Both the position numbers and the translations under genes were made by a program. The notes under the pieces are model-generated. The model was not told the DNA's origin. It searched no databases and was given only the letters and a program-made list of their open reading frames with translations. Positions 24,395 to 35,980 of a DNA stretch of 64,000 bases are shown piece by piece. How positions within the stretch are numbered: the stretch's first letter is position 1; each line of letters opens with the position of its first letter. The stretch is from Candidatus Poribacteria bacterium (lineage in GTDB: Bacteria; Poribacteria; WGA-4E; WGA-3G). The DNA lies in contig OZ219750.1 in assembly GCA_964291315.2 (NCBI GenBank), positions 320,001-384,000 on the forward strand, given 5' to 3'.

Positions 24395-24952
24395 ATGGAC
24401 GCAAAAGACCTTGAAAACATCTCAGATAACGTTTTACTCGCCCGGATTCAAAACGGAGATGATGATGCACTTGTAGCCCTCATTGAAAAATATGAGCGGC
24501 TCCTCAAGACTATTATCTACTATGAAATCGGTAATCCCGAGGAAAAAGCGGATATTTATCAAGAGACCGTCCTCGCGATTGTGCGGCGGATCCGCAGGCA
24601 AGCAGAGGGAATTCGTTCTGTTAAACAGTGGGTAAAACAGATAGCGCGTAGTAAGTGCAAGGCATTCCTAGTAGATGCCAAGAAACGTGGCATCGTCAGG
24701 GACTGGGCTGAAGATTACTATGCCCTCAGGACTGATCAGCAGGAACAAAAGTCTGAAAACGTTGATCAAATTTTAGACGTGGTCGAGGAGATGGGTTCCA
24801 TTTATGTAGAGGTTGTTGAGTTGTGGGCGGACGGACTGACGGAGGCTGAATCAGCAGAAGTGCTGAATATTTCGCCAAACACCGTAAAGTCTCGGCGGAA
24901 CAAGATACGAAAGGTCGCCCGTGAACGTTTCGGTGTGTCGGTTTCCAAGTAA
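24395..24952 (+). CDS. ECF-type RNA polymerase sigma factor
   Basis: Region 2 (GD.DA...L..KY, DIYQE, WV..IA) and region 4 HTH (E.AEVLNIS.NTVKSR). Confidence 0.88.
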   Translation: MDAKDLENISDNVLLARIQNGDDDALVALIEKYERLLKTIIYYEIGNPEEKADIYQETVLAIVRRIRRQAEGIRSVKQWVKQIARSKCKAFLVDAKKRGIVRDWAEDYYALRTDQQEQKSENVDQILDVVEEMGSIYVEVVELWADGLTEAESAEVLNISPNTVKSRRNKIRKVARERFGVSVSK

Positions 24953-24954
24953 TT

Positions 24955-25133
24955 TGGTTGTACCGTGACTCAACTGAATAAACATTGACTAGATTTTAAG
25001 ATTGACAATTTTTCTATAAGGTGTTAACCTAATTGGCAACCTCGCTTTTTTATTTCTGATTAGGTTGGCATCCTATTTTACATAGGTGTGAGCTTTTTCG
25101 GTTCGCCCCTTATATCACAATAAGCGGATTGCT
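24955..25133 (+). repeat. Copy 1 of a conserved promoter plus structured-leader element
   Basis: TTGACA(25002-7)-17-TAACCT(25025-30); matches 30196-30370 and 33684-33814. Confidence 0.85.
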
Positions 25134-25206
25134 AGCGAAGGCAAAATTTTCCTTTTTACCATCTGATAGCAATTCCTTTAAAGATAAAATGTTAGGAGAC
25201 CTTCCA

Positions 25207-25590
25207 ATGATCAGAAGAAAAAGAAACATTCTTGTATCGCATCTTCTATTGCTTGTTTTGTTCAGCACCCCTTTTCTAATGATTTGCTCGATACAAGAGG
25301 CGGATGCTTGGTTCATGCACCAGACCAATTGTAGGTCGGAATTCGAAATCGGGGCTTCTGCCGGTGCTGAAATCGATAAATTTGGGCCTAAGGCCAAAGC
25401 TGAAGCCAAAGTGAGTTTTAAGGTTGTGTGTGATACGGAGTTTCACTGGAGTCCCTTCCCACACGGCGACGATGATGATGACTCCTCTTCCGGAAGTTGC
25501 GACGATGACTCCTCCGGGAATTACAGCACGTCTCCGTGGTGCCTTAGATGCAGCGGTTCGATACACGTGGGACGATGTCCGGAGTTTTAG
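25207..25590 (+). CDS. Small secreted Cys-containing, Asp/Ser-rich peptide (127 aa)
   Basis: AGGAG RBS, basic and hydrophobic signal peptide ending EADA, DDDDDSSSG/DDDSSG repeat, C-terminal CxxC..H...C. Confidence 0.7.
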   Translation: MIRRKRNILVSHLLLLVLFSTPFLMICSIQEADAWFMHQTNCRSEFEIGASAGAEIDKFGPKAKAEAKVSFKVVCDTEFHWSPFPHGDDDDDSSSGSCDDDSSGNYSTSPWCLRCSGSIHVGRCPEF

Positions 25591-25670
25591 TATTCCTCCA
25601 AAGGAGATTGGTGTATATACTGTGAGGAGGAACATTGGAGCTGTAATTTCGGTACCGGTTTGGTAACGCC

Positions 25671-25692
25671 GGTGAAATGGATTCACCTTTTT
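25671..25692 (+). terminator. Intrinsic terminator-like hairpin after the peptide gene; a second longer hairpin lies at ~25697-25731
   Basis: GGTGAA-atgga-TTCACC-TTTTT, then CTCGGAGCGTTTCCT...AGGAACGTTCCGAG. Confidence 0.5.
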
Positions 25693-25780
25693 CAGCCTCG
25701 GAGCGTTTCCTTGAAACAGGAACGTTCCGAGATCACAACGACAACAGTATGTTAGCGTTTTTTATTTTTTATCTGAGTTT

Positions 25781-25915
25781 ATGAGCGAGATAGATCTGTT
25801 CCTACAGAGATTAGATGACCTTCTCATCTTCCTCTCCATTGTCTTTGGAGGGTTTATCATAGGTTTTTTCCTCCTCGTGTGGCTGGTTTTATGGTTCTAT
25901 AAGAAACGTAGGTAA
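25781..25915 (+). CDS. 44-aa single-TM peptide (below the ORF track cutoff)
   Basis: MSEIDLFLQRLDDLLIFLSIVFGGFIIGFFLLVWLVLWFYKKRR*; acidic N-terminus, TM helix, basic C-tail. Confidence 0.5.
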   Translation: MSEIDLFLQRLDDLLIFLSIVFGGFIIGFFLLVWLVLWFYKKRR

Positions 25916-26008
25916 AACGTCTATGCGGGAAATCGCAATATTTTGACAGAAAAGGAGGAAGACTGTCTTTGGTTGAGTCAATTCAATATGGACAGTCCCA
26001 AAATGTAA

Positions 26009-26860
26009 ATGAGATTTCTAAATGTGTGTCTATTCATTTTTATGCTTTGTGGTATTGGTCTCTATGCGGTTCACCCGCATGCAGATCATTCTGCTACATC
26101 TGGTGATCATACCGTGCTCTATAAAGGTTCCTCCGCCCCTTGGCAAACAGAGCTGCAAGCGTTTCAGAAACTTCTGAAGACGGACGCTTCCGCTGCGAGG
26201 GCCGAACTTCATGCCTTTGCTGAAAGAATCTTTGGAGACCATGCACTCGTTGAAGAATGGGTGCCCCTCTACTTCCGGATCCGAAAAGACGGTACCACCC
26301 ATCTTTCTGATCTCAAGCGTGTCTCGGAACTCGAAATTCGCATGCTGGAGCGTATTGATCCGGAAAAATATGCCGAGCAGATACAGCATCACCAAAAAAA
26401 GATCAAACGTTCGAGTGTTTCTCGTCAGAAGGGAAACGAGTCTGCTCCAACGGGAGCCCTCAAAGGCCAATGGAGTTCTCCTACCCTGACGGCATTTGAA
26501 AGTGGCGGTGAATTTTTCATCAACTTTGTTAACTTGTTGACTACGGACCTGAAAGCCGCGCGCGCCGAACTCAACAAGTATGCGTCTCAGCGATATGGAG
26601 ACCATCCGCACAAGGCAGAATGGACTGAACTTGTCTTTCGCAACTTCCGCGACAAAAAATCCAAGATTTTGGACTTGATGCGGCTGTATGAGTTGGAAAA
26701 GCAGATGCTGACAGACATTGACCCTGAAAAGCATGCCGATGGAATAAAAAATCTTGAGCGAATCATTAAAATCCACGAACGTCTGCAAAGAAATTTTGAA
26801 CGTCAAGGGACACCTAACCCAACCATCGGTGTTGAGTTTAATCTAACAACAGAAGATTGA
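26009..26860 (+). CDS. Exported hypothetical protein with two copies of a ~90-aa helical domain
   Basis: Signal peptide; internal repeat AARAEL...GDH...W...ML..IDPEK. Confidence 0.75.
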   Translation: MRFLNVCLFIFMLCGIGLYAVHPHADHSATSGDHTVLYKGSSAPWQTELQAFQKLLKTDASAARAELHAFAERIFGDHALVEEWVPLYFRIRKDGTTHLSDLKRVSELEIRMLERIDPEKYAEQIQHHQKKIKRSSVSRQKGNESAPTGALKGQWSSPTLTAFESGGEFFINFVNLLTTDLKAARAELNKYASQRYGDHPHKAEWTELVFRNFRDKKSKILDLMRLYELEKQMLTDIDPEKHADGIKNLERIIKIHERLQRNFERQGTPNPTIGVEFNLTTED

Positions 26861-26877
26861 GAAAAAAGGAGTCAGAG

Positions 26878-27612
26878 ATGAAATCTATGACCACACTCTT
26901 CCGCGTCGGTAGTGTGATAGTGCTTATTTGCATAGGGGTTTGGCTTTACGTCGAGTGGGATCTGAAACGGTTTAGGGAATCGCTACCCTCCTCGTCTCAG
27001 AGAACTGACGAACGCTCGCTTGAACACTTCGCACCCGCCGTCTCCGAAGGAGAACGGAATGGAACAGGAGCCGCTTCATCCGCCGAACTTGACACAGCGC
27101 CTATAGACCGAGACACCGGGGTACTTGAAAGCGAAAGCCGCGTTGCTAGCACTGAGACAGATGTGCTTTTTGATACAGATCCACAATTCAGAGAAGCCCT
27201 TCTTCCCGATGCGGACCTCCCGGAGGTGTCCAATGGAGATGGACCCCGTGAGGCCCCGTACGACTTGATGTTCGTCAAGGCGGGATATGCAGATTACAAC
27301 GCCTATCTGAATACTGATCCCGAATATGCTTACCGAAGGCTTGACGATGCGTTCCGCGAACAATTCGGTGATTCCCCCGATGTTGACATTCTGCTTGAAA
27401 GCGTTCGCCGCTACAATGAAGGCCCCGTGCCAATAGACACGGCAATTCGGTTCGCGGAGGCACAGTTACGACTTCTCTCCAAGTTCGGGTATCCTGAACC
27501 TATAGCAGTACTCCAAGATCACATTGAGATGCTTCGAGAAACGCGGCAATACGGCTTGGAATCTGGGGAGGAAGTTCTCTATCAGAATAACTACCGCTTT
27601 GTATCGGAGTGA
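26878..27612 (+). CDS. N-anchored hypothetical protein with an acidic linker and one divergent copy of the same helical domain
   Basis: AAGGAG RBS, N-terminal TM helix, TDPEYAYRRL...FGDSP. Confidence 0.7.
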   Translation: MKSMTTLFRVGSVIVLICIGVWLYVEWDLKRFRESLPSSSQRTDERSLEHFAPAVSEGERNGTGAASSAELDTAPIDRDTGVLESESRVASTETDVLFDTDPQFREALLPDADLPEVSNGDGPREAPYDLMFVKAGYADYNAYLNTDPEYAYRRLDDAFREQFGDSPDVDILLESVRRYNEGPVPIDTAIRFAEAQLRLLSKFGYPEPIAVLQDHIEMLRETRQYGLESGEEVLYQNNYRFVSE

Positions 27613-27615
27613 CGG

Positions 27616-27975
27616 ATGAAACGTTTGTTTGTTTTTTTGAGTTTAGTGCTTTGCGTGGCGGGTGTCGTTTTTTACTTACCGCTGCGTGACTCTGCTCCCT
27701 CAAAAATTGCACCCCTGTCAAATCAAGATAAGAGAGACATCCTCGAAAATCAGACGACACCTTCCCAGGAAAAGGAATGTGCGTGCTGCCAATCCACATT
27801 AGAGAAGATAAAACGTAAGCGGCAGGCACTAGAAATGTGGGCTCGGGAGAGGATCAACATGTATGGGTACGAAGAAGGAATGAAGCGCATCTCGGAGAAA
27901 TCGGCTACATTGGCAAAACGGATGCAAACCCTCCTTGAAAAAGAAAAAGATGCTAACGGATTCCCCGCTCCGTAG
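27616..27975 (+). CDS. Small N-anchored hypothetical protein (CACC motif)
   Basis: 119-aa ORF in the operon; a paralogous fragment lies at ~31248-31306. Confidence 0.65.
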   Translation: MKRLFVFLSLVLCVAGVVFYLPLRDSAPSKIAPLSNQDKRDILENQTTPSQEKECACCQSTLEKIKRKRQALEMWARERINMYGYEEGMKRISEKSATLAKRMQTLLEKEKDANGFPAP

Positions 27976-30022
27976 AGAAAAAACGTCCCTGTTTAGGGGC
28001 ACATTTTTTTTCATGAGCGCATGGGTGTTGATCTTTGCTGTTCTAATGCTCGCCTTCTGGATCCGTATCCAAGGCGTAGCGCAGCTACCGGAGGGTCAAT
28101 TCACCGAGACCGATGCCTATTTCTACTACTGGCAGGCAGAGCTTATTTCAGAACACGGGCACCTCCCTGCCCGCGATATGCACCGCTGGCTGCCCGTCGG
28201 TAGAGATTTAGGGCAGACGCTGAATCTCTACGGTTACGTCCTTGCTTATGCTCATAAAGCTGTTGCAGCGGTTTTTTCGAAGGTCACGCTCTACCATGTG
28301 ACTGTGTATTTGCCAGTTATCTGCTTTTGCGTCGGGCTCGCGGGGCTCTGTCTTTTTCTTTACCACATCTACGGTCCCCTCTTTTCGAGTGTCGTTGGTG
28401 TGCTTTTGGCAACGCTACCTGGCAGTATAGAACGCAGTGCTGCCGGTTTCGGGGACCGGGACGCTTTTTGTCTGATGCTCGGCCTCCTTGCTGTCCTTTC
28501 ATATCTTGCCGCGCGACACGCCGAAACGCGACGCAGTCGCCTGATTTGGACCCTTACCAGCGGATGTTTTGTCTTTTTAGGCGGCATCAGTTGGGAAGGG
28601 TTCGGTGTCTTTACCAGCATCATAATTCTCGTTGAGATATGGCGTTTTCTCACATCCGAAAGAGAAGAAGAGTTCGGTCTGTACGCCCTATGGGTGCTCC
28701 TCTTCGTTCCAACCCTGTACCTTGTCTCTCCAGCCTATCGGAACGGATATGGTTTCGCAGAACACCTCTTTGCGTTTGTGCTTGTGCCTCCGGTTGTGCT
28801 TCTGGGTCTCCGCGCACTCCGAAAACAGCTGCTTGTCAGATCGGAAAAACTCCGATCACATGCCCCGACTTTGTCCCTCGTTTTGATACTTGCTAGTCTT
28901 GCAATTACACTCGTCTATGTTTGGGGTCAATTGGACACCTTCGCCGATACCACTGTCCCGCTGAGTAAGAAACCTGTCATGCAGGCGATGACAGAACTCC
29001 GGGCACCGCATGCCCGTTATTGGACTGCTCGTTATGGCTGCGTGTTTATTGTAGGAAGTCTCGGCTTTGTCCTTATACCATTTTCGCTCTGGAAAAAGCG
29101 GGGTCTCTTCTTGTCTATACCGCTAGCACTCTTTACGGCTACTTCCTTCTACCGTGCCTCGTTGGAGAACGTGTGGGGGGAATCTTTTGGGAATGCCCTC
29201 TTCGGTAGTGCTATTGTGGTATGTCTACTCATACTTATGTTTTTCCCGTGGCAGCGAAAAAACAGTGAAGGCCCGTCAGAACTTGTTTCTATTGCCTTCA
29301 CAGTGTGGTTTATTGCTTGGGTCGCGCTTTCCCGCGATGCAAAACGTTATGACTTCTTTATCGGGGTTGCCCTTGCCTTCGGAGCAGCAACGTTCATAGG
29401 AACGTTTTCAAAAATCGTTCTCAATAAAATCAGAGTGCGAACGAAGTATCCACACTCTCTGCGTTACCTAAGAGGCAGCATCACAGCTTTGTTACTCATC
29501 GTTGTTATGTTCTTTCCTTCGCCTTTCGGGCATGCCAATCGGTCAATATATGCAGCAACTCGGATGCGAAAGGCTCTCCCTGGCAGGACAGTGATTGCAG
29601 AAGCCTTCCGTTGGATGAACTCAAATCTGCCGCGTGATGCTATTGTCGCAGCAGATTGGCGTTACGGCAGCCAACTCAACGTACTCGCCGGTGTCAAAAC
29701 TATTATAGATCAAGACACCTACATACAAGACTGGATACATCTTTACCATAAACATGTTGTCTATTCGAGGACCCAACGCGAGGCTTTGGAATTCTTGAAA
29801 ACCCACGGAGCAACACATCTGATGTTAGTCGGACAACATCCTGCGAAGCATTTCCTCAGGGGGCACCCCGGCGATGCGTTCGTTCCAGTCTATCCAAGAA
29901 ACAACTTTTCTGGTGCAACACTAAACCTCTGGGAGCTCCACTATCCCCCGGACATCCAAACCGATCCGAAATACCTGAAAACCGGTTTCCAAGAGATAGA
30001 TGCAGCATTACAACGACACTGA
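27950..30022 (+). CDS. STT3/AglB/PglB-like oligosaccharyltransferase (GT-C) with a variant catalytic motif
   Basis: Many TM segments; E.DAY.YY, ..RS.AGFGD.D, and W+..NLP.DA.V...W.YG.Q (DWRYG in place of WWDYG). Confidence 0.75.
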   Translation: MLTDSPLRREKTSLFRGTFFFMSAWVLIFAVLMLAFWIRIQGVAQLPEGQFTETDAYFYYWQAELISEHGHLPARDMHRWLPVGRDLGQTLNLYGYVLAYAHKAVAAVFSKVTLYHVTVYLPVICFCVGLAGLCLFLYHIYGPLFSSVVGVLLATLPGSIERSAAGFGDRDAFCLMLGLLAVLSYLAARHAETRRSRLIWTLTSGCFVFLGGISWEGFGVFTSIIILVEIWRFLTSEREEEFGLYALWVLLFVPTLYLVSPAYRNGYGFAEHLFAFVLVPPVVLLGLRALRKQLLVRSEKLRSHAPTLSLVLILASLAITLVYVWGQLDTFADTTVPLSKKPVMQAMTELRAPHARYWTARYGCVFIVGSLGFVLIPFSLWKKRGLFLSIPLALFTATSFYRASLENVWGESFGNALFGSAIVVCLLILMFFPWQRKNSEGPSELVSIAFTVWFIAWVALSRDAKRYDFFIGVALAFGAATFIGTFSKIVLNKIRVRTKYPHSLRYLRGSITALLLIVVMFFPSPFGHANRSIYAATRMRKALPGRTVIAEAFRWMNSNLPRDAIVAADWRYGSQLNVLAGVKTIIDQDTYIQDWIHLYHKHVVYSRTQREALEFLKTHGATHLMLVGQHPAKHFLRGHPGDAFVPVYPRNNFSGATLNLWELHYPPDIQTDPKYLKTGFQEIDAALQRH

Positions 30023-30195
30023 GCAGGCGGCAAACATCATATCAGAGCCATTCAATTGTTGATACTGGTTTTTTGAATGATGTTGAGGGGGTTCCCTGGA
30101 TGTGCGCAAGCAAATCGTCATAAATTTTTGCGATGTGCGTATGGTCAGAGCCGCAGGAGCGTGAGGGTGGTATTGCGTAAAGCTGCCGTCACTTG

Positions 30196-30370
30196 TGGTT
30201 GTACTGCGCCTCAGCGAAATAAACATTGATTAGATTTTAAGATTGACAATTTTTCTATAAGGTGTTAACCTGATTCGCAACCCTCTTTGTGACGTTTTTA
30301 GGTTGGCATCCTATCTTACTATTTGCGGGCTTTTTCGGTTCGCCCCTTATATCACAATAAGCGGATTGCT
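30196..30370 (+). repeat. Copy 2 of the promoter plus structured-leader element
   Basis: TTGACA(30243-8)-17-TAACCT(30266-71); the 3' block GCTTTTTCGGTTCGCCCCTTATATCACAATAAGCGGATTGCT is identical to copy 1. Confidence 0.85.
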
Positions 30371-30476
30371 TGTCTCTCCTTTGGATTTTCCAATTTTCCA
30401 TCAGTGTAAACTGTCACTATAAGTTGAATCCGATTCGACACAAACGTGTGTCGAAAGGGATAAAGGAGCATATCTA

Positions 30477-31142
30477 ATGCTAAGAAAAAAGTTTTACATT
30501 CCAATCGGACTCGGGATCCTTGCGATAGCTGCGATAGGTTTCCTGTCTCTACGCTCGGATGTGTCAGATGGACTAGTTAAGGTTTACAAAGCAACCAAGC
30601 CCGTTGCTAGATCATCGGGTTCATCCTCCGCTGCCACCGTAAAAACGTCATTTTCTGCATCGCCTCCACTAGATACTTATGAAGCAGGACACGAGACACC
30701 CCTGTCTGGGAGTGCGTCTGATACTTATACAGATAGTGAACCGCAGGGTAACGAGGAGATCGAGATTGAACAGTTGCGGGCTGAGGTAGCTGATTTGAAA
30801 AAGATTATCGCAGAAAAGCGTGCAATCCTTACAGAGGTTAAGAACTTTAATGCGTGGGTAGAACGAGTGGATCTACGGTCTTCTTTCTCGGAGCTTTTGT
30901 CTTTACGTTCTTTACCTACAGAGGAGATTCGCGAGAAGTACTCTGCGGCGGAATTTCGGGCGATTGCCGTTGATAATGCCTCGCGCTTCAATGCGATTCG
31001 CGACGAGTTTTTGACTCGCGTTGAAAATTACTCACCCGGGGCAAGAGCTATCATTTATGAGCAGATTCATTCGGACCCGGTGTCGAGTCAGATCTACCGT
31101 GATTATATTGAAAACCCATGGGTAGATGGGGTACCGAAATGA
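30477..31142 (+). CDS. N-anchored hypothetical protein with a Ser-rich linker and coiled coil
   Basis: AAGGAG RBS, N-terminal TM helix, V.VYK motif shared with the 34148 protein. Confidence 0.7.
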   Translation: MLRKKFYIPIGLGILAIAAIGFLSLRSDVSDGLVKVYKATKPVARSSGSSSAATVKTSFSASPPLDTYEAGHETPLSGSASDTYTDSEPQGNEEIEIEQLRAEVADLKKIIAEKRAILTEVKNFNAWVERVDLRSSFSELLSLRSLPTEEIREKYSAAEFRAIAVDNASRFNAIRDEFLTRVENYSPGARAIIYEQIHSDPVSSQIYRDYIENPWVDGVPK

Positions 31143-31310
31143 AAATTCTTTGGAAATCCGCTATCCTATTATCTTTGGCGTTTTTGATAGTTTGCTTCTC
31201 TGCTTCAGAGGCGGATGAGGAGGTTGAGATATTGAAACGGGACCTTAAGAGCAGATAAGACGTAAGCAGCGGGCACTCGAAATGTGGGCTCGGGAGAGGA
31301 TCAACTTCAT
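31139..31310 (+). pseudogene. Degenerate remnant that includes a paralog of 27616-27975
   Basis: Signal-peptide ORF MKILWKSAILL... stops early. An out-of-frame EQIRRKQRALEMWARERIN matches EKIKRKRQALEMWARERIN. Confidence 0.6.
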
Positions 31311-31331
31311 AGGGGTCTTTTTCGAGACGTT

Positions 31332-31750
31332 TTACTTCGTCGGTCTCGGTAAAAACAGTTCAAAGTCGAGGGACACTTTTACTTTCTCGGTTTCAAGAGA
31401 TCCTTGTTTTTTGAGTAGTTTCTCGAGGCTCTTGAATTGTTTCAAAGTGTTTTCGGTGGCTTGAATCTGTTCTTTATATGTTTCGGCATCTGTTTGCTTC
31501 ATTAACTGAAGGTGCAGCGTTGTGAACGCAATCGTATCTGGATAGGTGGCCATTTCCTGAGTGGCGACTTTCAACAAAGCATCGACGAATGATTCGGCGA
31601 GCGGGTTGTTGTTGTATTGCTTTGCGACGTGTTTGATGAGTAGTTTGCGCGCGGCATCGGGATCGCGTGCGTAAAATGCTTTAAAATCGTTTTCTTGAGG
31701 GTTGCCGCGGCTTTTATGAGAAAAACAGCGTGGAAACCCGCAGTTTGAGA
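31332..31750 (-). pseudogene. 5'-disrupted paralog of the 26009 helical-domain protein
   Basis: Frame is open upstream of the listed ORF: DFKAFYARDPDAARKLL...YNNNPL...LMKQTDAETYKEQIQ. No in-frame start precedes the stop at 31752-54. Confidence 0.6.
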
Positions 31751-32004
31751 TCTAACTATTTTATCAAGCTCATGTTATAAGTAGGAATGACAAGACTTGC
31801 ATTCGTTTGGATGTTCTCCTAAATGTCGTCCGTTTTTGACAGGTTTCTTTTTTGGACCTGAAGTGTAATGATGCTTTCCTCTCAGGCCGATTGGAAGCTT
31901 AGTCGAAATACCAACTCTATAAAAACGTGAGTTGGTTTATAAATGACTGAGAAGAGAGGGGTTTCAACAGTTGTATCCCGACTGTAGGCAGCGGGTTTTG
32001 CCCA

Positions 32005-33345
32005 TCACAAGACATCAATAGAGGCACCTATTGCTTTGAGTTTCTCAGGCACATTCGCATACCCGCGTTCTATATAATTAATGCCCCTGACGTCACTGAC
32101 TCCTTCTGCTATTAACGCAGCAATAATATATGCGAACCCTGCGCGTAAATCCGGAATCGTAATGGTCTGCCCTTCGAGGTGTGTGGGACCTCGGACGATA
32201 CAACTGTGTAATTGATTTTTATCCCGAAATCGACACGGTTTAGTGCCCAGGCATGATTTAGATAAATCAATATCAGCTCCCATAGCACCTAGCAGGTGAG
32301 TATAACCAAATCTATCCTCATATACAGTCTCATGTATAACAGAAACCCCATTCGCTTGTGTAAGCAAAACCACAAAAGGTTGTTGCCAGTCGGTCATGAA
32401 TCCTGGGTGGACATCCGTTTCGATGTAGCTACCATACAATTCACGGTTCTGTCGAAAGAATGTAATCCCATTGGTGTCAACCTGCATTTCCCCTCCGACT
32501 TTCCGCAGCTCATTGAGGAATGTAATCATGTCGGCTTGATTGGCATTCTTTACGGTAACACGTCCATCTGTGGCAACGGCGGCAGTCGCGAGTGATGCCA
32601 CTTCAATCCTATCACTCATTGTGTGATGCGTAGCCCCGTGGAGCTGATTAACCCCTTCAATTATAATCTGTCTATCGACATCGAGGGTAATCAAAGCTCC
32701 CATTTTCTGCAGGAAAAGAACTGTATCAATAATTTCCGGCTCTATCGCTGCGTTAATAATAACAGTCGTTCCTTCAGCCAGTGTCGCTGCCATTAATATA
32801 TTTTCTGTTGCTCCTACACTCGGATAGGGTAATTCCACCACAGTTCCCTGTAATTTTCCGCTCCGGGCTATGTAATACTCATCGTGAATTTCGACGTTGG
32901 CGCCCATTGCCTCTAATCCCGTGATATGAAAATCAATAGGACGCTCTCCTATTCTACACCCGCCAACCGTCGGCACTTTTACTTCGTCTGCTCGATGTAG
33001 AAGCGGACCAATGAGCAAGATCGGAATACGGTTGAACCCCGAATATATTTCACTCACTGTTGCCCGCGCAAGTTTAGGCGTTTGAATGACCAATGTCCCC
33101 TCGTCCAACCATTCATAGATCGTCCCTACCTCTGAGAGCATATCAAGAATTGCGTCAATTTCGGTAATACGAGGCACATTCGTAAAAGTACAAGGTGCCT
33201 CTGTTAATATGGAGGCAACGATTTGTTTACTGATAGCGTTTTTCGCTGCATCAACCTCAACAACCCCTTCAAGTTTATAGCCGCCATCTATAAGATAATG
33301 TTTTTCCGTTGTTTCCTGCTGAACAACTTCTTTGCGTTTCGCCAT
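32005..33345 (-). CDS. murA: UDP-N-acetylglucosamine 1-carboxyvinyltransferase
   Basis: AKNA, GGCRIG.RP, SVGATEN, PGF.TD.Q, DLRAG, RGY. Confidence 0.97.
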   Translation of the reverse strand: MAKRKEVVQQETTEKHYLIDGGYKLEGVVEVDAAKNAISKQIVASILTEAPCTFTNVPRITEIDAILDMLSEVGTIYEWLDEGTLVIQTPKLARATVSEIYSGFNRIPILLIGPLLHRADEVKVPTVGGCRIGERPIDFHITGLEAMGANVEIHDEYYIARSGKLQGTVVELPYPSVGATENILMAATLAEGTTVIINAAIEPEIIDTVLFLQKMGALITLDVDRQIIIEGVNQLHGATHHTMSDRIEVASLATAAVATDGRVTVKNANQADMITFLNELRKVGGEMQVDTNGITFFRQNRELYGSYIETDVHPGFMTDWQQPFVVLLTQANGVSVIHETVYEDRFGYTHLLGAMGADIDLSKSCLGTKPCRFRDKNQLHSCIVRGPTHLEGQTITIPDLRAGFAYIIAALIAEGVSDVRGINYIERGYANVPEKLKAIGASIDVL

Positions 33346-33683
33346 GTTTTTCTCCCGATCAGTTCATACAGTCCGCTCCAAAGAGCCACGGTTTGCCCCA
33401 TTCCTTCGCTGTACACAAGAAAGAGATTTACCAATAGAAAGCCAGGTTTCGTGAAAAACGGATGGATTGTCTCCCCGGATCGCTGATCCCCGTAGACAAT
33501 GTAGATCACGAGATTTTCAATCATAGTGTACTTAGAAACAACGTTGAAATTGTTTTTATGGTTTCTAGATGAACGTAGACGGAAGGTTATCCATTTTTCT
33601 CTCCCAAGTTCAACGTATTGTTCTGGGCAACAGCGACAGCCTCCTTTTTCGTGGCGTTTACGACGACAGCATTAGTTCCTTTG

Positions 33684-33814
33684 TGGTTGTACCGCGAGTC
33701 AACTGAATAAAAGTTGGTTAGATTTTAATATTGACAATTTTTCTATAAGGTGTTAGCTTAAGTGGCAAACCTCTTTGTTTACGAGCTTTTTAGGTTTACA
33801 TCGTATAGTACGAT
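33684..33814 (+). repeat. Copy 3 (shorter, more diverged) of the promoter plus structured-leader element
   Basis: TTGACA(33731-6)-17-TAGCTT(33754-9) with an identical spacer ATTTTTCTATAAGGTGT. Confidence 0.8.
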
Positions 33815-33830
33815 AATAGGAGCACTCCAC

Positions 33831-34010
33831 ATGAAAAAAGCGGTTAAAAGCGCGATAGATCTTTGCAAATATGCTCGACAGCGACATATCAACTACCTCC
33901 AGAATTTGAGCAGCCGCGAGAGGAATATAGTGGCAGTTGTGAAAATAGTGTCCATTGTGTTGCTATTTGTGTCTCTATTCCTTATGGTATATGTCTATTT
34001 GTATCTTTAA
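33831..34010 (+). CDS. 59-aa C-terminally anchored membrane peptide
   Basis: AGGAG RBS before ATG 33831; hydrophobic C-terminus. Confidence 0.55.
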   Translation: MKKAVKSAIDLCKYARQRHINYLQNLSSRERNIVAVVKIVSIVLLFVSLFLMVYVYLYL

Positions 34011-34147
34011 TGCTAATATAGTGTTTGGGTTGAGAGGCGCCGGGTTCTCATTTTGAAGTTGCCTCGGAGGTATCCAACCCCTCGGCGGACACGCTAACGC
34101 GAATATTTATGAGCATCTGTCGTTTAAAAAAAGAGGAGATATATGAA

Positions 34148-34801
34148 ATGACTAAAAACGTCAGCGTCCTATTCATTTTCTGCTTCATTTCTGCCGTTGG
34201 TGCGTTTTGGTATTTCGGACATCATCGTCCTGCTCAAGAAATACAACGAGCGGAGCCCGTGGAGATTTATAAGCCAACGCTCTCTGAACCGCGTCGAGTG
34301 AAAGAACCTTCCCCTGTTACGGAAACGCCTCCACCCTCAGAAACAGAGCGTAACGAGTTCTCTGACACTTCCACACAGTCGGACATAACGGGTGAGGGTT
34401 TCGACGACAACGCCCTGCCTGCCTCTGATCCGGGCGCGCCCGCTGTCGGGACAGCTGAAGTGTCGACTGCCCCCGAACAATCAGAGGGATTTCTAGGCGA
34501 TCACCCGCCTCATGAGCATAACGACTCAGCGAAATCAGAGCTCAGGGAGGAAGTGGCTGCGGCATTGGCATCAGCTGAAAGAACCATGGAAAAGGGGATG
34601 GTGGCGCTGGTTCAGATACTCAAGTCCAAACCGGTAGAAGAACAACGTATCATGTGGAAGGCCATGAAAGAGAGTGCTTTCACTACCAAAAATCCTGTCA
34701 CACAAGAGCAGTTAACGCCTGAGCAAGCTGAAGAGGTATGGCAGATGATGGTCAATATCATAAAAAGCACCGGGTATGTTCTGCCGGAAGGAGTGGAGTG
34801 A
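34148..34801 (+). CDS. N-anchored hypothetical protein with a Pro/Glu-rich linker
   Basis: GAGGAG RBS, N-terminal TM helix, EPVEIYK motif. Confidence 0.7.
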   Translation: MTKNVSVLFIFCFISAVGAFWYFGHHRPAQEIQRAEPVEIYKPTLSEPRRVKEPSPVTETPPPSETERNEFSDTSTQSDITGEGFDDNALPASDPGAPAVGTAEVSTAPEQSEGFLGDHPPHEHNDSAKSELREEVAAALASAERTMEKGMVALVQILKSKPVEEQRIMWKAMKESAFTTKNPVTQEQLTPEQAEEVWQMMVNIIKSTGYVLPEGVE

Positions 34802-34970
34802 TGAAACGGTTGCCTTTTCTTGTATGGCGTGGGTATCCTTGTTCTCACGGGTTTTTTTATTGCATCCTTTGAGTCTGTTACAAGGCGGGGGAACGCATCG
34901 AGAAAACGCAAACAGCGAGGGTGAGAAAAAAGAAGAAGCTAAGAGATTCGCCTTTCCTAGAAGGAAACAC

Positions 34971-35657
34971 ATGAGAACGAGTCTTCAAAACGTCAGAGAT
35001 ATCTTCGTAAACCCGAGACAGGCCTTCGTGCATCTTAAAGATGATCCCAAATGGCTGTTGGCGTTTGCTCTCCATTGCCTCAGCTTTGTTGTTGTGGCAT
35101 GGGTAACTGATCCTTTTGAAGCCCACCTCTCTTCCGCAAATATTTCAGAGGAAGGGGGTGCCTCTGACAGCGTGAGAGATACCTATCCCATCATATATTT
35201 AGTTACTGCTGTGCTGGGTGGCAGTTTTATAATGTTAATGTTTGCTCTATTGAGTGGGTTTCTCTGGACGGTAGCGCGCCTCTTCCGAATAAATCGGAGT
35301 ATCCTCAAATTTAGTCACATCTATGTATGCCTTCTACACATCACGCTTATTACTGTTTGCGAAGAGCTTCTTAATACAGTATTGCTTCTCATTTTTAGAA
35401 CTCCCCAGGATGTATATACAAGGATAGACCTGCAGCTGATTCCGGGATTACACGATCTGTTAGGTTTTGTACAGAATGAGAAGCTGCTAATGTTTCTGAG
35501 CAGTTACAATCTCTTCAGTGTGTGGGAAATCGTTCTTACGGTAATTGCCGTTGTCGTTTTGATAGGGGTGGATAGATTGCGGGCGATTTTGATAGCGTTG
35601 TGCCTATCGCTTGTTATGGCAGTTCCGTTTCTTATCTATGCCTTATATTTGTTGTAA
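34971..35657 (+). CDS. Yip1-domain membrane protein
   Basis: IFVNPRQAF..LK..PKW N-terminal signature, ~5 TM segments, NLFSVW. Confidence 0.75.
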   Translation: MRTSLQNVRDIFVNPRQAFVHLKDDPKWLLAFALHCLSFVVVAWVTDPFEAHLSSANISEEGGASDSVRDTYPIIYLVTAVLGGSFIMLMFALLSGFLWTVARLFRINRSILKFSHIYVCLLHITLITVCEELLNTVLLLIFRTPQDVYTRIDLQLIPGLHDLLGFVQNEKLLMFLSSYNLFSVWEIVLTVIAVVVLIGVDRLRAILIALCLSLVMAVPFLIYALYLL

Positions 35658-35668
35658 CATTTTACTAA

Positions 35669-35980
35669 ATGATGACTCAACTCCGAAAGCGCAGTCTACT
35701 TCTTAATGCGTTCACAATGATCATGGTATTTGTAATAACAATGTTTGTATCATTTCCGCAATTTCTCGAAACAGGATTTGCAGATTGGAGAGACATTGGA
35801 GGCCCTGCTGTGGCATGTGTGGGTGCAGTAGTAACAGGGACCGCTGCGGTTGCTGTTCTTGGGGTGTCTGCTCCGGTGTGGGTCCCGGCGGTTGCATTTG
35901 GCGGTTCAGTTGTAGGGTTGATCGGCACCGGAATAACGCTTTGGGACGCTATAGATGGTGCCGATGCTCCGTTCTATTAG
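35669..35980 (+). CDS. Sec-secreted Gly/Ala/Val-rich bacteriocin-like peptide
   Basis: RKR plus hydrophobic leader ending GFA; mature part of about 65 aa is hydrophobic with small-residue zipper motifs. Confidence 0.6.
   Translation: MMTQLRKRSLLLNAFTMIMVFVITMFVSFPQFLETGFADWRDIGGPAVACVGAVVTGTAAVAVLGVSAPVWVPAVAFGGSVVGLIGTGITLWDAIDGADAPFY

What the first reader, a model, noticed from the sequence alone, without database searches (positions are those of the whole stretch)
24955..33814. Triplicated promoter plus leader with compensatory base changes: candidate new cis-regulatory RNA or operator
Seen: three copies (24955-25133, 30196-30370, 33684-33814) share TGGTTGTAC...AATAAA...TAGATTTTAA.ATTGACAATTTTTCTATAAGGTGTTA.C.T. 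Downstream, stem 1 is CAACCT/AGGTTG in copy 1 and AAACCT/AGGTTT in copy 3, both with a 19-nt variable T-rich loop. Stem 2 is CCTAT/ATAGG in copy 1 and ATCGTA/TACGAT in copy 3. Copies 1 and 2 add an identical ~42-nt block with a CTTAT/ATAAG stem. The downstream genes differ. Inference: a conserved regulatory module co-ordinating variable secreted-protein cassettes. Copy 1 starts right at the ECF sigma stop codon.
Basis: partly seen in the sequence, partly recalled or inferred. Interest (0 to 1): 0.75.

Follow-up and report, generated by a model that had tools for sequence, protein, structure and literature searches.

The report
Triplicated promoter with truncated leader RNA
Three nearby copies of one control region each combine a likely promoter with a shortened version of a large folded leader RNA; that RNA appears undescribed, is common in this bacterial family, and sits ahead of genes for small secreted proteins.

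Summary
The three copies are real. A 25-base core occurs exactly three times in the window (0 expected) and nowhere else in the genome.

The core reads TTGACA, 17 bases, TGT-TAACCT (TAGCTT in copy 3). The pattern TTGACA-N13-15-TGYTARCYT recurs 78 more times in 111 related genomes, against 31 control hits. In 59 of all 81 matches the gap is exactly 14. I read it as a lineage-typical extended -10 promoter.

The leader is not a stand-alone novelty. The "42-nt block" of copies 1 and 2 is the 3' part of a roughly 230-nt folded 5' leader RNA:
- It is found in 53 of 65 genus genomes.
- In the order sample it is confined to one bacterial family: 62/103 genomes, against 0/47 in three sister families.
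- Rfam has no match.
- Covariation supports its structure.

Copy 1 matches my model of this RNA at 53.6 bits; copies 2 and 3 match only marginally.

- Stem 1 competes with a 12-16 bp helix that includes the -10.
- Stem 2 is missing in copy 2.
- The CTTAT/ATAAG stem is not conserved in relatives.

No RNA data were available, so the transcription start is unproven.

The parts
24395..24952 (+). ECF-type sigma factor gene, directly upstream of copy 1
   Evidence: Pfam Sigma70_r2 (E=5e-9), Sigma70_ECF and Sigma70_r4_2. Matches at 61-72% identity in 17 other genus genomes.
24955..25001 (+). Copy 1 upstream conserved region: distal box TGGTTGTAC (24955-24963) and an A/T-rich stretch up to the -35
   Evidence: Conserved in all three copies. 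The box plus AATAAA motif has no other convincing match in the genome. Function is inferred (UP element or activator site) and untested.
25002..25030 (+). Copy 1 candidate promoter: -35 TTGACA (25002-25007), 17-nt spacer, TG at 25022-25023, -10 TAACCT (25025-25030). Predicted start about 25036-25038.
   Evidence: Read. The same pattern class recurs in the bacterial family with a sharp preference for this spacing. The generic scanner does not list it because the second hexamer matches only 3 of 6.
25019..25074 (+). Copy 1 first hairpin region. Long helix: AGGTGTTAACCTAAT (25019-25033) with ATTAGGTTGGCATCCT (25059-25074).
   Evidence: Fold results (the centroid shows the long helix when the 5' arm is included). 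Hand pairing. Resembles helix P4 of the leader family.
25086..25178 (+). Copy 1 leader-family module: small hairpin (25086-25094 with 25100-25108), conserved single-stranded block (about 25107-25125), long-range helix GGATTGC (25126-25132) with GCAATTC (25169-25175), and an inner hairpin (about 25140-25160)
   Evidence: Model R1 with filters off: 53.6 bits, E=5.4e-11 over 12 kb. 54.7 bits for 25021-25178.
25194..25590 (+). Ribosome-binding site AGGAG (25194-25198) and first gene after copy 1 (ATG 25207; 127 aa; N-terminal signal-like segment; Asp/Ser/Cys-rich)
   Evidence: No Pfam family.
26009..30022 (+). Further genes after copy 1: 283-aa, 251-aa and 119-aa proteins without a family, and a 695-aa STT3-like membrane protein
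   Evidence: STT3, E=1.9e-13. Paralogous clusters lie elsewhere in the genome. One paralogous cluster, at C4:3100841, is preceded by a full leader.
30196..30370 (+). Copy 2: -35 at 30243-30248; -10 at 30266-30271; long helix 30260-30273 with 30297-30312; small hairpin 30325-30331 with 30337-30343; conserved block and GGATTGC (30363-30369). Similarity to copy 1 ends after that.
   Evidence: R1 with filters off: 17.9 bits, E=0.0062.
30477..31142 (+). Gene after copy 2 (221 aa; N-terminal membrane segment; no Pfam family)
33684..33833 (+). Copy 3: -35 at 33731-33736; -10 TAGCTT at 33754-33759; long helix 33749-33762 with about 33788-33802; stem 1 at 33767-33772 with 33792-33797; hairpin 33800-33805 with 33809-33814; AGGAG at 33818-33822; ATG at 33831
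   Evidence: R1 with filters off: 19.2 bits, E=0.003.
33831..35980 (+). Genes after copy 3: a 59-aa protein with a C-terminal membrane segment, a 230-aa protein, a Yip1-domain membrane protein, and a 103-aa Gly/Ala/Val-rich protein
   Evidence: Yip1, E=4.2e-9.

Best explanation
Each copy is a paralogous 5' control module with two parts.

Part 1 is a housekeeping-type promoter of a form common in this lineage. It has a perfect -35 TTGACA, a 17-bp spacer, a TG-extended weak -10 (TAACCT or TAGCTT), and about 47 nt of conserved A/T-rich upstream DNA. Transcription would start near 25037, 30278 and 33766.

Part 2 is a short 5' leader descended from a roughly 230-nt structured leader RNA family specific to this bacterial family.
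- Copy 1 keeps the whole 3' module: a small hairpin, a conserved single-stranded block, a long-range helix, and an inner hairpin close to the ribosome-binding site.
- Copy 2 keeps the hairpin, the block and the 5' arm of the long-range helix.
- Copy 3 keeps only a 5' hairpin and a block-like remnant that runs straight into the ribosome-binding site.

The three modules would give three adjacent cassettes of small secreted or membrane proteins the same transcriptional input.

Inferred, not shown: the leader tunes translation by pairing CCUU-type stretches that resemble the 3' end of 16S rRNA with GGA-containing stretches that resemble ribosome-binding sites.
For: Repeat:
- It is real and unique to this locus.
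- Conservation is uneven. About 45 nt around the promoter are almost invariant, while the flanks and downstream genes are unrelated. That argues for selection rather than a recent plain duplication.

Promoter:
- The pattern TTGACA-N13-15-TGYTARCYT has 81 matches in 49 of 112 genomes of the bacterial family, against 31 for the back-to-front control.
- Gap 14 accounts for 59 of the 81 matches; gap 13 for 13 and gap 15 for 9 (my count).
- Where both lists can be compared (G083 and G069), none of these sites coincides with a leader hit.
- Loci next to orthologous sigma genes carry consensus promoters at the same place that begin TTGAC(A/G)ATTTTT, as here.

Leader family:
- My model R1 hits 53 of 65 genus genomes, with up to 11 hits per genome.
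- It hits 62/103 genomes of the same family and 0/11, 0/29 and 0/7 in three sister families.
- 3' half (32 sequences): 86.1% of cells paired against 36-43% when partners are slid; 15 pairs changed on both sides against 8-12; 0 of 500 shuffles reach the observed values.
- 5' half (unfitted MAFFT alignment, 27 sequences): 94.0% paired against 28-55% slid; 9 pairs changed on both sides against 3-6.
- Copy 1 scores 53.6 bits.

Context:
- 9 of 33 family loci have a sigma-70/ECF-type gene ending 130-350 nt upstream on the same strand, as copy 1 does.
- The downstream genes are mostly small proteins of about 60-150 aa with signal-like N-termini.
Against: - No transcript data exist, so the start sites are predictions.
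- The -10 hexamer matches the consensus at only 3 of 6 positions, and the generic scanner does not list these sites.
- In all three copies the -10 region is the 5' arm of a 12-16 bp helix with the downstream AGGTT region. That arm is 12 of 13 identical to the 5' arm of helix P4 of the leader family.
- By my hand count, 8 of 10 differences in this helix keep pairing, mostly as G-U. The count covers differences among the copies and against the family consensus. This hints that the arm is, or recently was, transcribed, which would need a start upstream of 25019.
- Copies 2 and 3 match the family model only marginally (17.9 and 19.2 bits).
- The 47 nt conserved upstream of the -35 are unexplained.
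- The translation-control mechanism rests on sequence resemblance only.
Confidence: 0.55

Rival explanations
1. Transcription starts upstream of the TTGACA box, from a weak or regulated promoter inside 24955-25000 or by read-through. Candidates are TTGTAC-17-AACATT and TGAATA-16-TAAGAT. The whole invariant core is then RNA. The 12-16 bp helix (25019-25033 with 25059-25074) is the working homologue of family helix P4, and the TTGACA box is either incidental or a second, internal promoter.
For: - The long helix forms in the folds of all three copies when the 5' arm is included. For copy 2 it is both the minimum-energy and the centroid structure, z=-2.95.
- The arm GTGTTAACCTAAT is 12 of 13 identical to the family P4 arm.
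- Changes in the helix are mostly pair-preserving transitions to G-U, which matter only in RNA (hand count).
- Conservation among the copies begins at TGGTTGTAC, which is where a -35 (TTGTAC) would sit.
Against: - The alternative promoters match the consensus at only 6-7 of 12 positions.
- A perfect TTGACA at exactly 17 bp from a TG-extended TAnnnT is unlikely to be incidental, and that promoter class is common in the lineage.
- Including the long helix adds only about 1 bit to the model score of copy 1 (54.7 vs 53.6 bits).
- Copy 3 has a divergent gene upstream, so read-through cannot supply it.
Confidence: 0.28
2. The invariant core of about 45 nt and the distal TGGTTGTAC box are mainly protein-binding DNA: an operator or activator site, or a target of the adjacent ECF sigma factor. 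These sites co-regulate the three cassettes, and the hairpins are secondary.
For: - The spacer between -35 and -10 is invariant in all three copies, which promoter function alone does not require.
- Conservation extends 47 nt upstream of the -35.
- Copy 1 abuts an ECF sigma gene, and 9 of 33 family leaders do the same.
Against: - No palindrome typical of a dimeric regulator is present. The only long inverted repeat needs G-T pairs and has a 24-27 nt spacer.
- The box motif is not found upstream of the sigma gene itself or elsewhere in the genome above background: 22 matches against 12 control matches at one mismatch, and only the three copies match exactly.
- The element was not found in 64 other genus genomes.
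Confidence: 0.12
3. The copies are relics of segmental duplication or of a small mobile repeat and have no present function.
For: - There are only three copies, all within 9 kb and in the same orientation.
- The region holds gene fragments and paralogues suggesting local rearrangement. The 31282-31464 reading frame shares 48% identity over 29 aa with the 119-aa protein encoded at 27616-27975.
- Assemblies of other strains replace sequence just after copy 3.
Against: - Conservation is strongly uneven: the core is nearly invariant while the leader is 60-85% identical.
- Every copy sits at a sensible distance ahead of a ribosome-binding site and a start codon.
- No terminal repeats or target duplications were noticed, though I did not test this systematically.
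Confidence: 0.05

Closest known systems
Extended -10 (TGn) sigma-70 promoters (recalled textbook class)
   Same: Perfect -35 TTGACA, 17-bp spacer, TG one base ahead of the -10, and T, A and T at the three most important -10 positions.
   Different: The -10 hexamer is TAACCT or TAGCTT (3 of 6 to consensus). This form seems to be a recurrent local variant in this bacterial family. About 47 further conserved bases lie upstream.
Riboswitches and other structured 5' leader RNAs with platforms that hide the ribosome-binding site (as curated in Rfam)
   Same: For the parent family: a long conserved 5' untranslated region, several helices with covariation, highly conserved unpaired stretches, a position just ahead of the ribosome-binding site, and two mutually exclusive helices in the 5' domain.
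   Different: No Rfam family matches, even at E<=1. No ligand or binding protein is known. The family controls variable small secreted proteins rather than a metabolic pathway. The three window copies lack the 5' domain.
5'-terminal stabilising hairpins of bacterial mRNAs (ompA and aprE leaders; recalled)
   Same: If transcription starts near 25037, stem 1 lies at the very 5' end of the RNA in all three copies.
   Different: The stem is only 5-6 bp with a loop of about 19 nt. No evidence bears on stability.
Multi-copy gene families with a conserved 5' region and variable coding parts (general concept, recalled)
   Same: The conserved leader, and in relatives a conserved signal peptide (MK.SL.Q.IAIVCIL...), is followed by very variable Cys/His-rich mature parts.
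   Different: No recombination or switching machinery was seen. The conservation includes RNA structure with covariation.

Membership tests
Any Rfam 15 family | Covariance-model match at or above the gathering score, or at least E<=1 | tested here: not met
   0 matches in the 64-kb window at gathering score. 0 matches at E<=1 in 9 loci that include the three copies and six full-length relatives.
Sigma-70-type promoter | -35 hexamer close to TTGACA with a 16-18 bp spacer | tested here: met
   TTGACA matches 6 of 6 and the spacer is 17 nt in all three copies.
Sigma-70-type promoter | -10 hexamer with at least 4 of 6 matches to TATAAT (the scanner's rule) | tested here: not met
   TAACCT and TAGCTT match 3 of 6 (T1, A2, T6). 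The sites are not listed. A TG motif is present one base upstream. The variant recurs in the lineage with a preferred 14-nt gap.
Sigma-70-type promoter | Transcription actually starts 5-9 nt after the -10 | not testable with these tools
   No RNA run was listed for this organism.
Lineage-specific structured leader RNA (my model R1; helices P4-P7) | Significant match to the covariance model | tested here: met
   Copy 1: 53.6 bits, E=5.4e-11; 54.7 bits in whole-genome searches.
Lineage-specific structured leader RNA (my model R1; helices P4-P7) | The same match for copies 2 and 3 | tested here: inconclusive
   17.9 bits (E=0.0062) and 19.2 bits (E=0.003) in a 12-kb search with filters off. Neither reached E<=0.01 in the 187-kb search with default filters. 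Copy 2 shares the conserved block exactly with copy 1.
Lineage-specific structured leader RNA, full-length form | 5' domain: closing helix ATGGCAG/CTGCCAT, hairpin CCTC/GAGG, and a GC-rich hairpin | tested here: not met
   It is absent upstream of all three copies, where the sequence between the distal box and the -35 is A/T-rich and unrelated. It is present in 27 aligned relatives and in the genome's own full copy at C4:238136-238266.
Intrinsic terminator or attenuator | GC-rich hairpin followed by a run of T | tested here: not met
   None of the hairpins in the copies is listed by the terminator scan. Their 3' flanks lack a consistent T run.
CsrA/RsmA-bound leader | A CsrA gene in the genome | tested here: not met
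   PF02599 was not found in the genome, which is 95.2% complete. The control genomes gave hits.

The most novel reading that the evidence does not exclude
The parent RNA is a new class of ligand- or protein-responsive switch of about 230 nt.
- It has a three-way-junction 5' domain.
- In that domain one strand (CTGCCAT) can pair either with the 5' end or with a downstream strand. One species changed all three strands in step.
- It has a relay of stretches resembling ribosome-binding sites and their complements.
- It would control a large, fast-evolving repertoire of small secreted Cys/His-rich proteins, wired to ECF sigma loci.

On this reading, the three window copies are natural minimal versions in which a promoter has moved into the leader and cut off the sensor. 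That would make these cassettes constitutive.
Probability: 0.25. Interest if true: 0.8.

Novelty: new variant of a known kind. Interest (0 to 1): 0.6.

Why it matters
On their own, the three copies are an ordinary case of a duplicated promoter and leader. Following them uncovered a large, multi-copy, lineage-restricted structured leader RNA. It has no Rfam entry and sits ahead of variable small secreted proteins, often right after ECF sigma genes.

If it is a switch, it would be a new regulatory RNA class. It would also offer a handle on how this little-studied lineage controls its secreted-protein repertoire.

The window copies are natural truncations. They could serve as built-in controls for dissecting which parts of the RNA are needed.

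The recurrent TGYTAACYT -10 variant is also useful for promoter annotation in this lineage.

Tried and rejected
- **Relatives of the whole element.** blastn of the 179-nt copy against 60 relatives gave only chance-level hits, apart from one 44-nt match (E=3.5e-5) in G032 that led to the family. A 121-nt query against 64 other genus genomes gave no match at E<=0.001. Exact 21-mer scans of metagenome contigs and genome contigs gave 0 hits each.
- **Naming the organism.** The search for related loci with the sigma protein returned only distant (<=35% over long stretches) sigma factors of other phyla. The protein atlas with MurA gave nothing useful.
- **Expression.** No RNA holder was listed. Contigs of four DNA runs break at the repeats and give no start sites. 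They show a 4-nt insertion in the copy-2 loop at 30285 and replacement of 33821-33996 in one run.
- **Earlier notes of this scan.** Nothing by place or by sequence.
- **ECF-type or shared upstream motif.** GGTTGTAC-N10-20-AATAAA is not enriched in the genome: 22 matches against 12 control at one mismatch. It is absent upstream of the sigma gene.
- **CsrA hypothesis.** No CsrA gene was found.
- **Paralogous gene clusters as carriers of the same element.** They lack the triplicated core. One carries a full family leader instead.
It is not kept in most relatives.
- **RNAalifold on a first mixed alignment.** It recovered the structure only partly because MAFFT misaligned divergent members. I then defined the helices by hand.
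- **Literature.** One full-text search (listing and abstract starts only) returned general riboswitch papers and nothing on this RNA. This does not show that the RNA is unpublished.


Full report
**1. The observation**

- Aligned, they share TGGTTGTAC, then AATAAA, then an almost invariant stretch of about 45 nt ending in TTGACAATTTTTCTATAAGGTGTTA.
- That 25-mer occurs exactly three times in the window with up to three mismatches allowed, against 0.00 expected.
- It occurs only at these places in the 4.40-Mb, four-contig genome. blastn and an nhmmer profile find no fourth copy; the next hit has E=0.019.
- Copies 1 and 2 are 87% identical over 179 nt. Copy 3 is 79-80% identical to them over 123-134 nt.
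- Copy 1 begins two bases after the stop codon of an ECF-type sigma factor gene at 24395-24952 (Pfam Sigma70_r2, Sigma70_ECF).
- The genes downstream of the three copies are unrelated to one another in all-against-all BLASTP, apart from weak low-complexity hits.

**2. The surrounding genes**

- Copy 1 precedes a 127-aa secreted-looking protein. After a 420-nt gap come three proteins without a family and an STT3-like membrane protein.
- Copy 2 precedes a 221-aa protein with an N-terminal membrane segment.
- Copy 3 lies in the intergenic region next to a divergent murA. It precedes a 59-aa protein, a 230-aa protein, a Yip1-domain protein and a 103-aa protein.
- Paralogues of the 283-aa, 251-aa and STT3-like proteins form clusters elsewhere in the genome, without the triplicated core.

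**3. The core as a promoter**

Read directly, the core is -35 TTGACA, a 17-nt spacer, TG one base before the -10, and -10 TAACCT (TAGCTT in copy 3).

The generic scanner does not list it, because the second hexamer matches only 3 of 6. Three lines of evidence favour a real promoter.

- *Orthologous loci.* The intergenic DNA after orthologous sigma genes in other species carries consensus promoters that start the same way. Examples are TTGACAATTTTT..TACAAT, TTGACGATTTTT..TAAAAT and TTGACA-17-TATAAT. The lineage therefore uses canonical -35/-10 promoters.
- *Recurrence.* The pattern TTGACA-N13-15-TGYTARCYT has 81 matches in 49 of 112 genomes of the bacterial family, against 31 for the back-to-front control.
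- *Spacing.* By my count from the coordinates, 59 of the 81 matches have the 14-nt gap, against 13 with gap 13 and 9 with gap 15.

Two caveats apply. Many matches are the same promoter in related species, so they are not independent. Gene context was checked only crudely: my rule found an ORF preceded by a ribosome-binding site in 3 of 12 loci, and short leaders are visible by eye in others.

In the two genomes where I compared the lists (G083, G069), none of these sites coincides with a leader hit.

**4. The leader belongs to a large family**

The only cross-species DNA hit of copy 1 was a 44-nt match of the "42-nt block" in G032. There it also lies after a sigma-like gene and before a small protein.

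A degenerate pattern for the block found 17 sites in 14 of 65 genus genomes, against 8 control hits. Their flanks showed a long, conserved leader.

I named its parts as follows:
- P0: ATGGCAG with CTGCCAT.
- P1: CCTC with GAGG.
- P2: a GC-rich hairpin.
- P3: CTGCCATA with TATGACAG. It excludes P0 because both use the same middle strand.
- P4: GYGCTAACCTAA with TTAGGTTAGCAC.
- P5: an inner hairpin within P4.
- J: a conserved unpaired block, CCTTATAYCAGAAYAAGA.
- P6: GGATTGC with GCAATCC.
- P7: an inner hairpin within P6.
- Then AGGAG and the start codon.

A covariance model of P4-P7 was built from 8 sequences, with none of the window copies in the seed. Its results:
- Genus: matches in 53 of 65 genomes at E<=0.01, with up to 11 per genome. 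There are 186 matches in all, some of them opposite-strand echoes of the palindromic P4/P5.
- Order sample of 151 genomes: 62 of 103 in the same family (four genera) and 0/11, 0/29 and 0/7 in three sister families.
- Rfam: nothing at E<=1 in six full-length members and the three copies.

**5. Is the family structure real?**

*3' half.* This used 32 matches aligned to the model, so the alignment leans towards the structure.
- 86.1% of cells pair, against 36-43% with partners slid.
- 15 of 39 pairs change on both sides, against 8-12.
- The covariation score is 0.180, against 0.044-0.067.
- 0 of 500 shuffles reach any observed measure. Strong pairs include column pair 10-54 (UA 19, GC 7, AU 3).

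*5' half.* This used a plain MAFFT alignment of 27 sequences.
- P0+P1+P2 give 94.0% paired against 28-55% slid, and 9 of 23 pairs changed on both sides against 3-6.
- Replacing P0 with the alternative P3 also beats its controls, though P3 itself is only 74.8% paired.
- In one species (G033) the middle strand, the P0 partner and the P3 partner changed together, so both helices survive (pairs 10-75 and 75-96).

RNAalifold on the same alignment independently predicted P0 and P2. I regard the family as a well-supported structured RNA. The possibility of a switch rests on one lineage only.

**6. Context of the family**

- In 9 of 33 loci examined, a sigma-70-family ORF ends 130-350 nt upstream on the same strand. 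Pfam found region 2 and/or region 4 in 9 of 11 ORFs submitted; one of the others is a sigma-54 activator and one has no family. Three of the nine loci come from two closely related genomes.
- My simple rule found a downstream ORF in 30 of 33 loci. Most are roughly 60-150 aa with a signal-like N-terminus, often MK.SL.Q.IAIVCIL.., followed by very variable Cys/His/Trp-rich sequence.
- The window's genome has other members:
  - a full one at C4:238136-238266 (79.6 bits);
  - two after sigma-like genes (C4:26423 and C1:216897);
  - one ahead of a paralogue of the 283-aa protein (C4:3100663).

**7. How the three copies relate to the family**

With filters off:
- Copy 1 matches at 25086-25178 with 53.6 bits. 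It has a small hairpin in place of P4/P5, then J, P6 and P7.
- Copy 2 scores 17.9 bits. It has the hairpin, J and the P6 5' arm only.
- Copy 3 scores 19.2 bits. It has a P4-like helix, and a J-like stretch runs directly into AGGAG.

Short family members of the copy-3 type exist in other genomes, for example after an ECF sigma gene in G018. There J leads straight to the ribosome-binding site.

None of the three copies has the 5' domain.

In other members the promoter also sits at different depths. In G066 and G087, TTGACA-18-TAAACT overlaps what is P0/P1 elsewhere. A promoter moving into the leader therefore has a precedent.

**8. The unresolved conflict**

In all three copies the stretch AGGTGTTAACCTAAT, which contains the TG and the -10, pairs with ATTAGGTTGGCATCCT downstream in a 12-16 bp helix (hand pairing).

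The 5' arm is 12 of 13 identical to the family's P4 arm. By my hand count, 8 of 10 differences keep pairing, mostly through G-U. The count covers differences among the copies and against the family consensus.
- If this helix works in RNA, transcription must start before 25019.
- If the TTGACA promoter is the start, the arm is not transcribed and the complementarity is a relic or a by-product.

The arm's resemblance to P4 may also be partly coincidence, because TGYTAACCT is itself the lineage's -10 variant. Including the helix adds only about 1 bit to copy 1's score. I favour the promoter reading at about 2 to 1. Only 5' end mapping can settle it.

**9. Mechanism (inferred)**

- The block after P4 (GCACCUUAUA) resembles the 3' end of this genome's 16S rRNA, which reads ..GAUCACCUCCUUUCU.
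- The following AAGAGGAUUGC resembles a ribosome-binding site.
- The P6 3' arm, GCAAUCC(U/C), again resembles its complement.
- In short members the block is followed directly by the true ribosome-binding site.

This suggests a relay of pairings that sets access to the ribosome-binding site, with the 5' domain and P4/P5 as a possible sensor. Nothing here tests it. A CsrA-type partner is unlikely, since no CsrA gene was found.

**10. Verdict**

- The repeat is real and probably functional.
- Its core is best read as a lineage-typical promoter.
- Its leader is a truncated member of a large structured leader RNA family that appears undescribed: Rfam has no match, and one literature search (listing only) found nothing relevant.
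The evidence lies in the relatives.

Noticed in passing
G000:C4:3185844 and C4:3187689 (outside the window): Two copies of the 16S rRNA 3' end lie only 1,845 nt apart on the same strand. This could be tandem 16S genes or an assembly oddity.
   Followed up: no
L158 (G086:C1, about 6409179-6409283) and L160 (G030:C82, about 940-962): In two relatives the leader is interrupted between P4 and the conserved block by an insert of about 130-150 nt with its own GC-rich hairpin (..gacgggcggggaaaccccgcccctac..). It looks like a small mobile insertion. L157 (G085) has a local tandem duplication at the same spot.
   Followed up: no
L166, L174, L184, L192 (upstream of the leader's 5' domain): One promoter type of the family has an inverted repeat, ATTTCGTC ... 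GACGAAAT, flanking the -10 (TATAAT). It is a candidate repressor site.
   Followed up: no
window 25503-25602 and 33821-33996: Contigs of other strains (runs X3, X4) replace 98 nt inside the first gene after copy 1 with 20 other letters. One X3 contig replaces the whole 59-aa gene after copy 3 with 39 letters. The cassettes vary between strains while the control modules stay.
   Followed up: partly
window 31282-31577: A 60-aa reading frame shares MWARERIN.. with the 119-aa protein encoded at 27616-27975. A minus-strand frame resembles the 283-aa protein. These are probably remnants of a duplicated cassette between copy 2 and murA.
   Followed up: partly
L038-L054 (loci of orthologous sigma genes): Right after the stop codon of the orthologous ECF sigma genes, many species share CCYGCAATTCAAT. 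This is absent in the window's genome, where copy 1 starts instead.
   Followed up: no
window 25163-25190: The scanner lists a promoter-like site (CTGATA-16-TAAAAT) inside the copy-1 leader, overlapping the P6 3' arm, 17 nt ahead of the start codon. It could be a second, internal start for the first gene.
   Followed up: no
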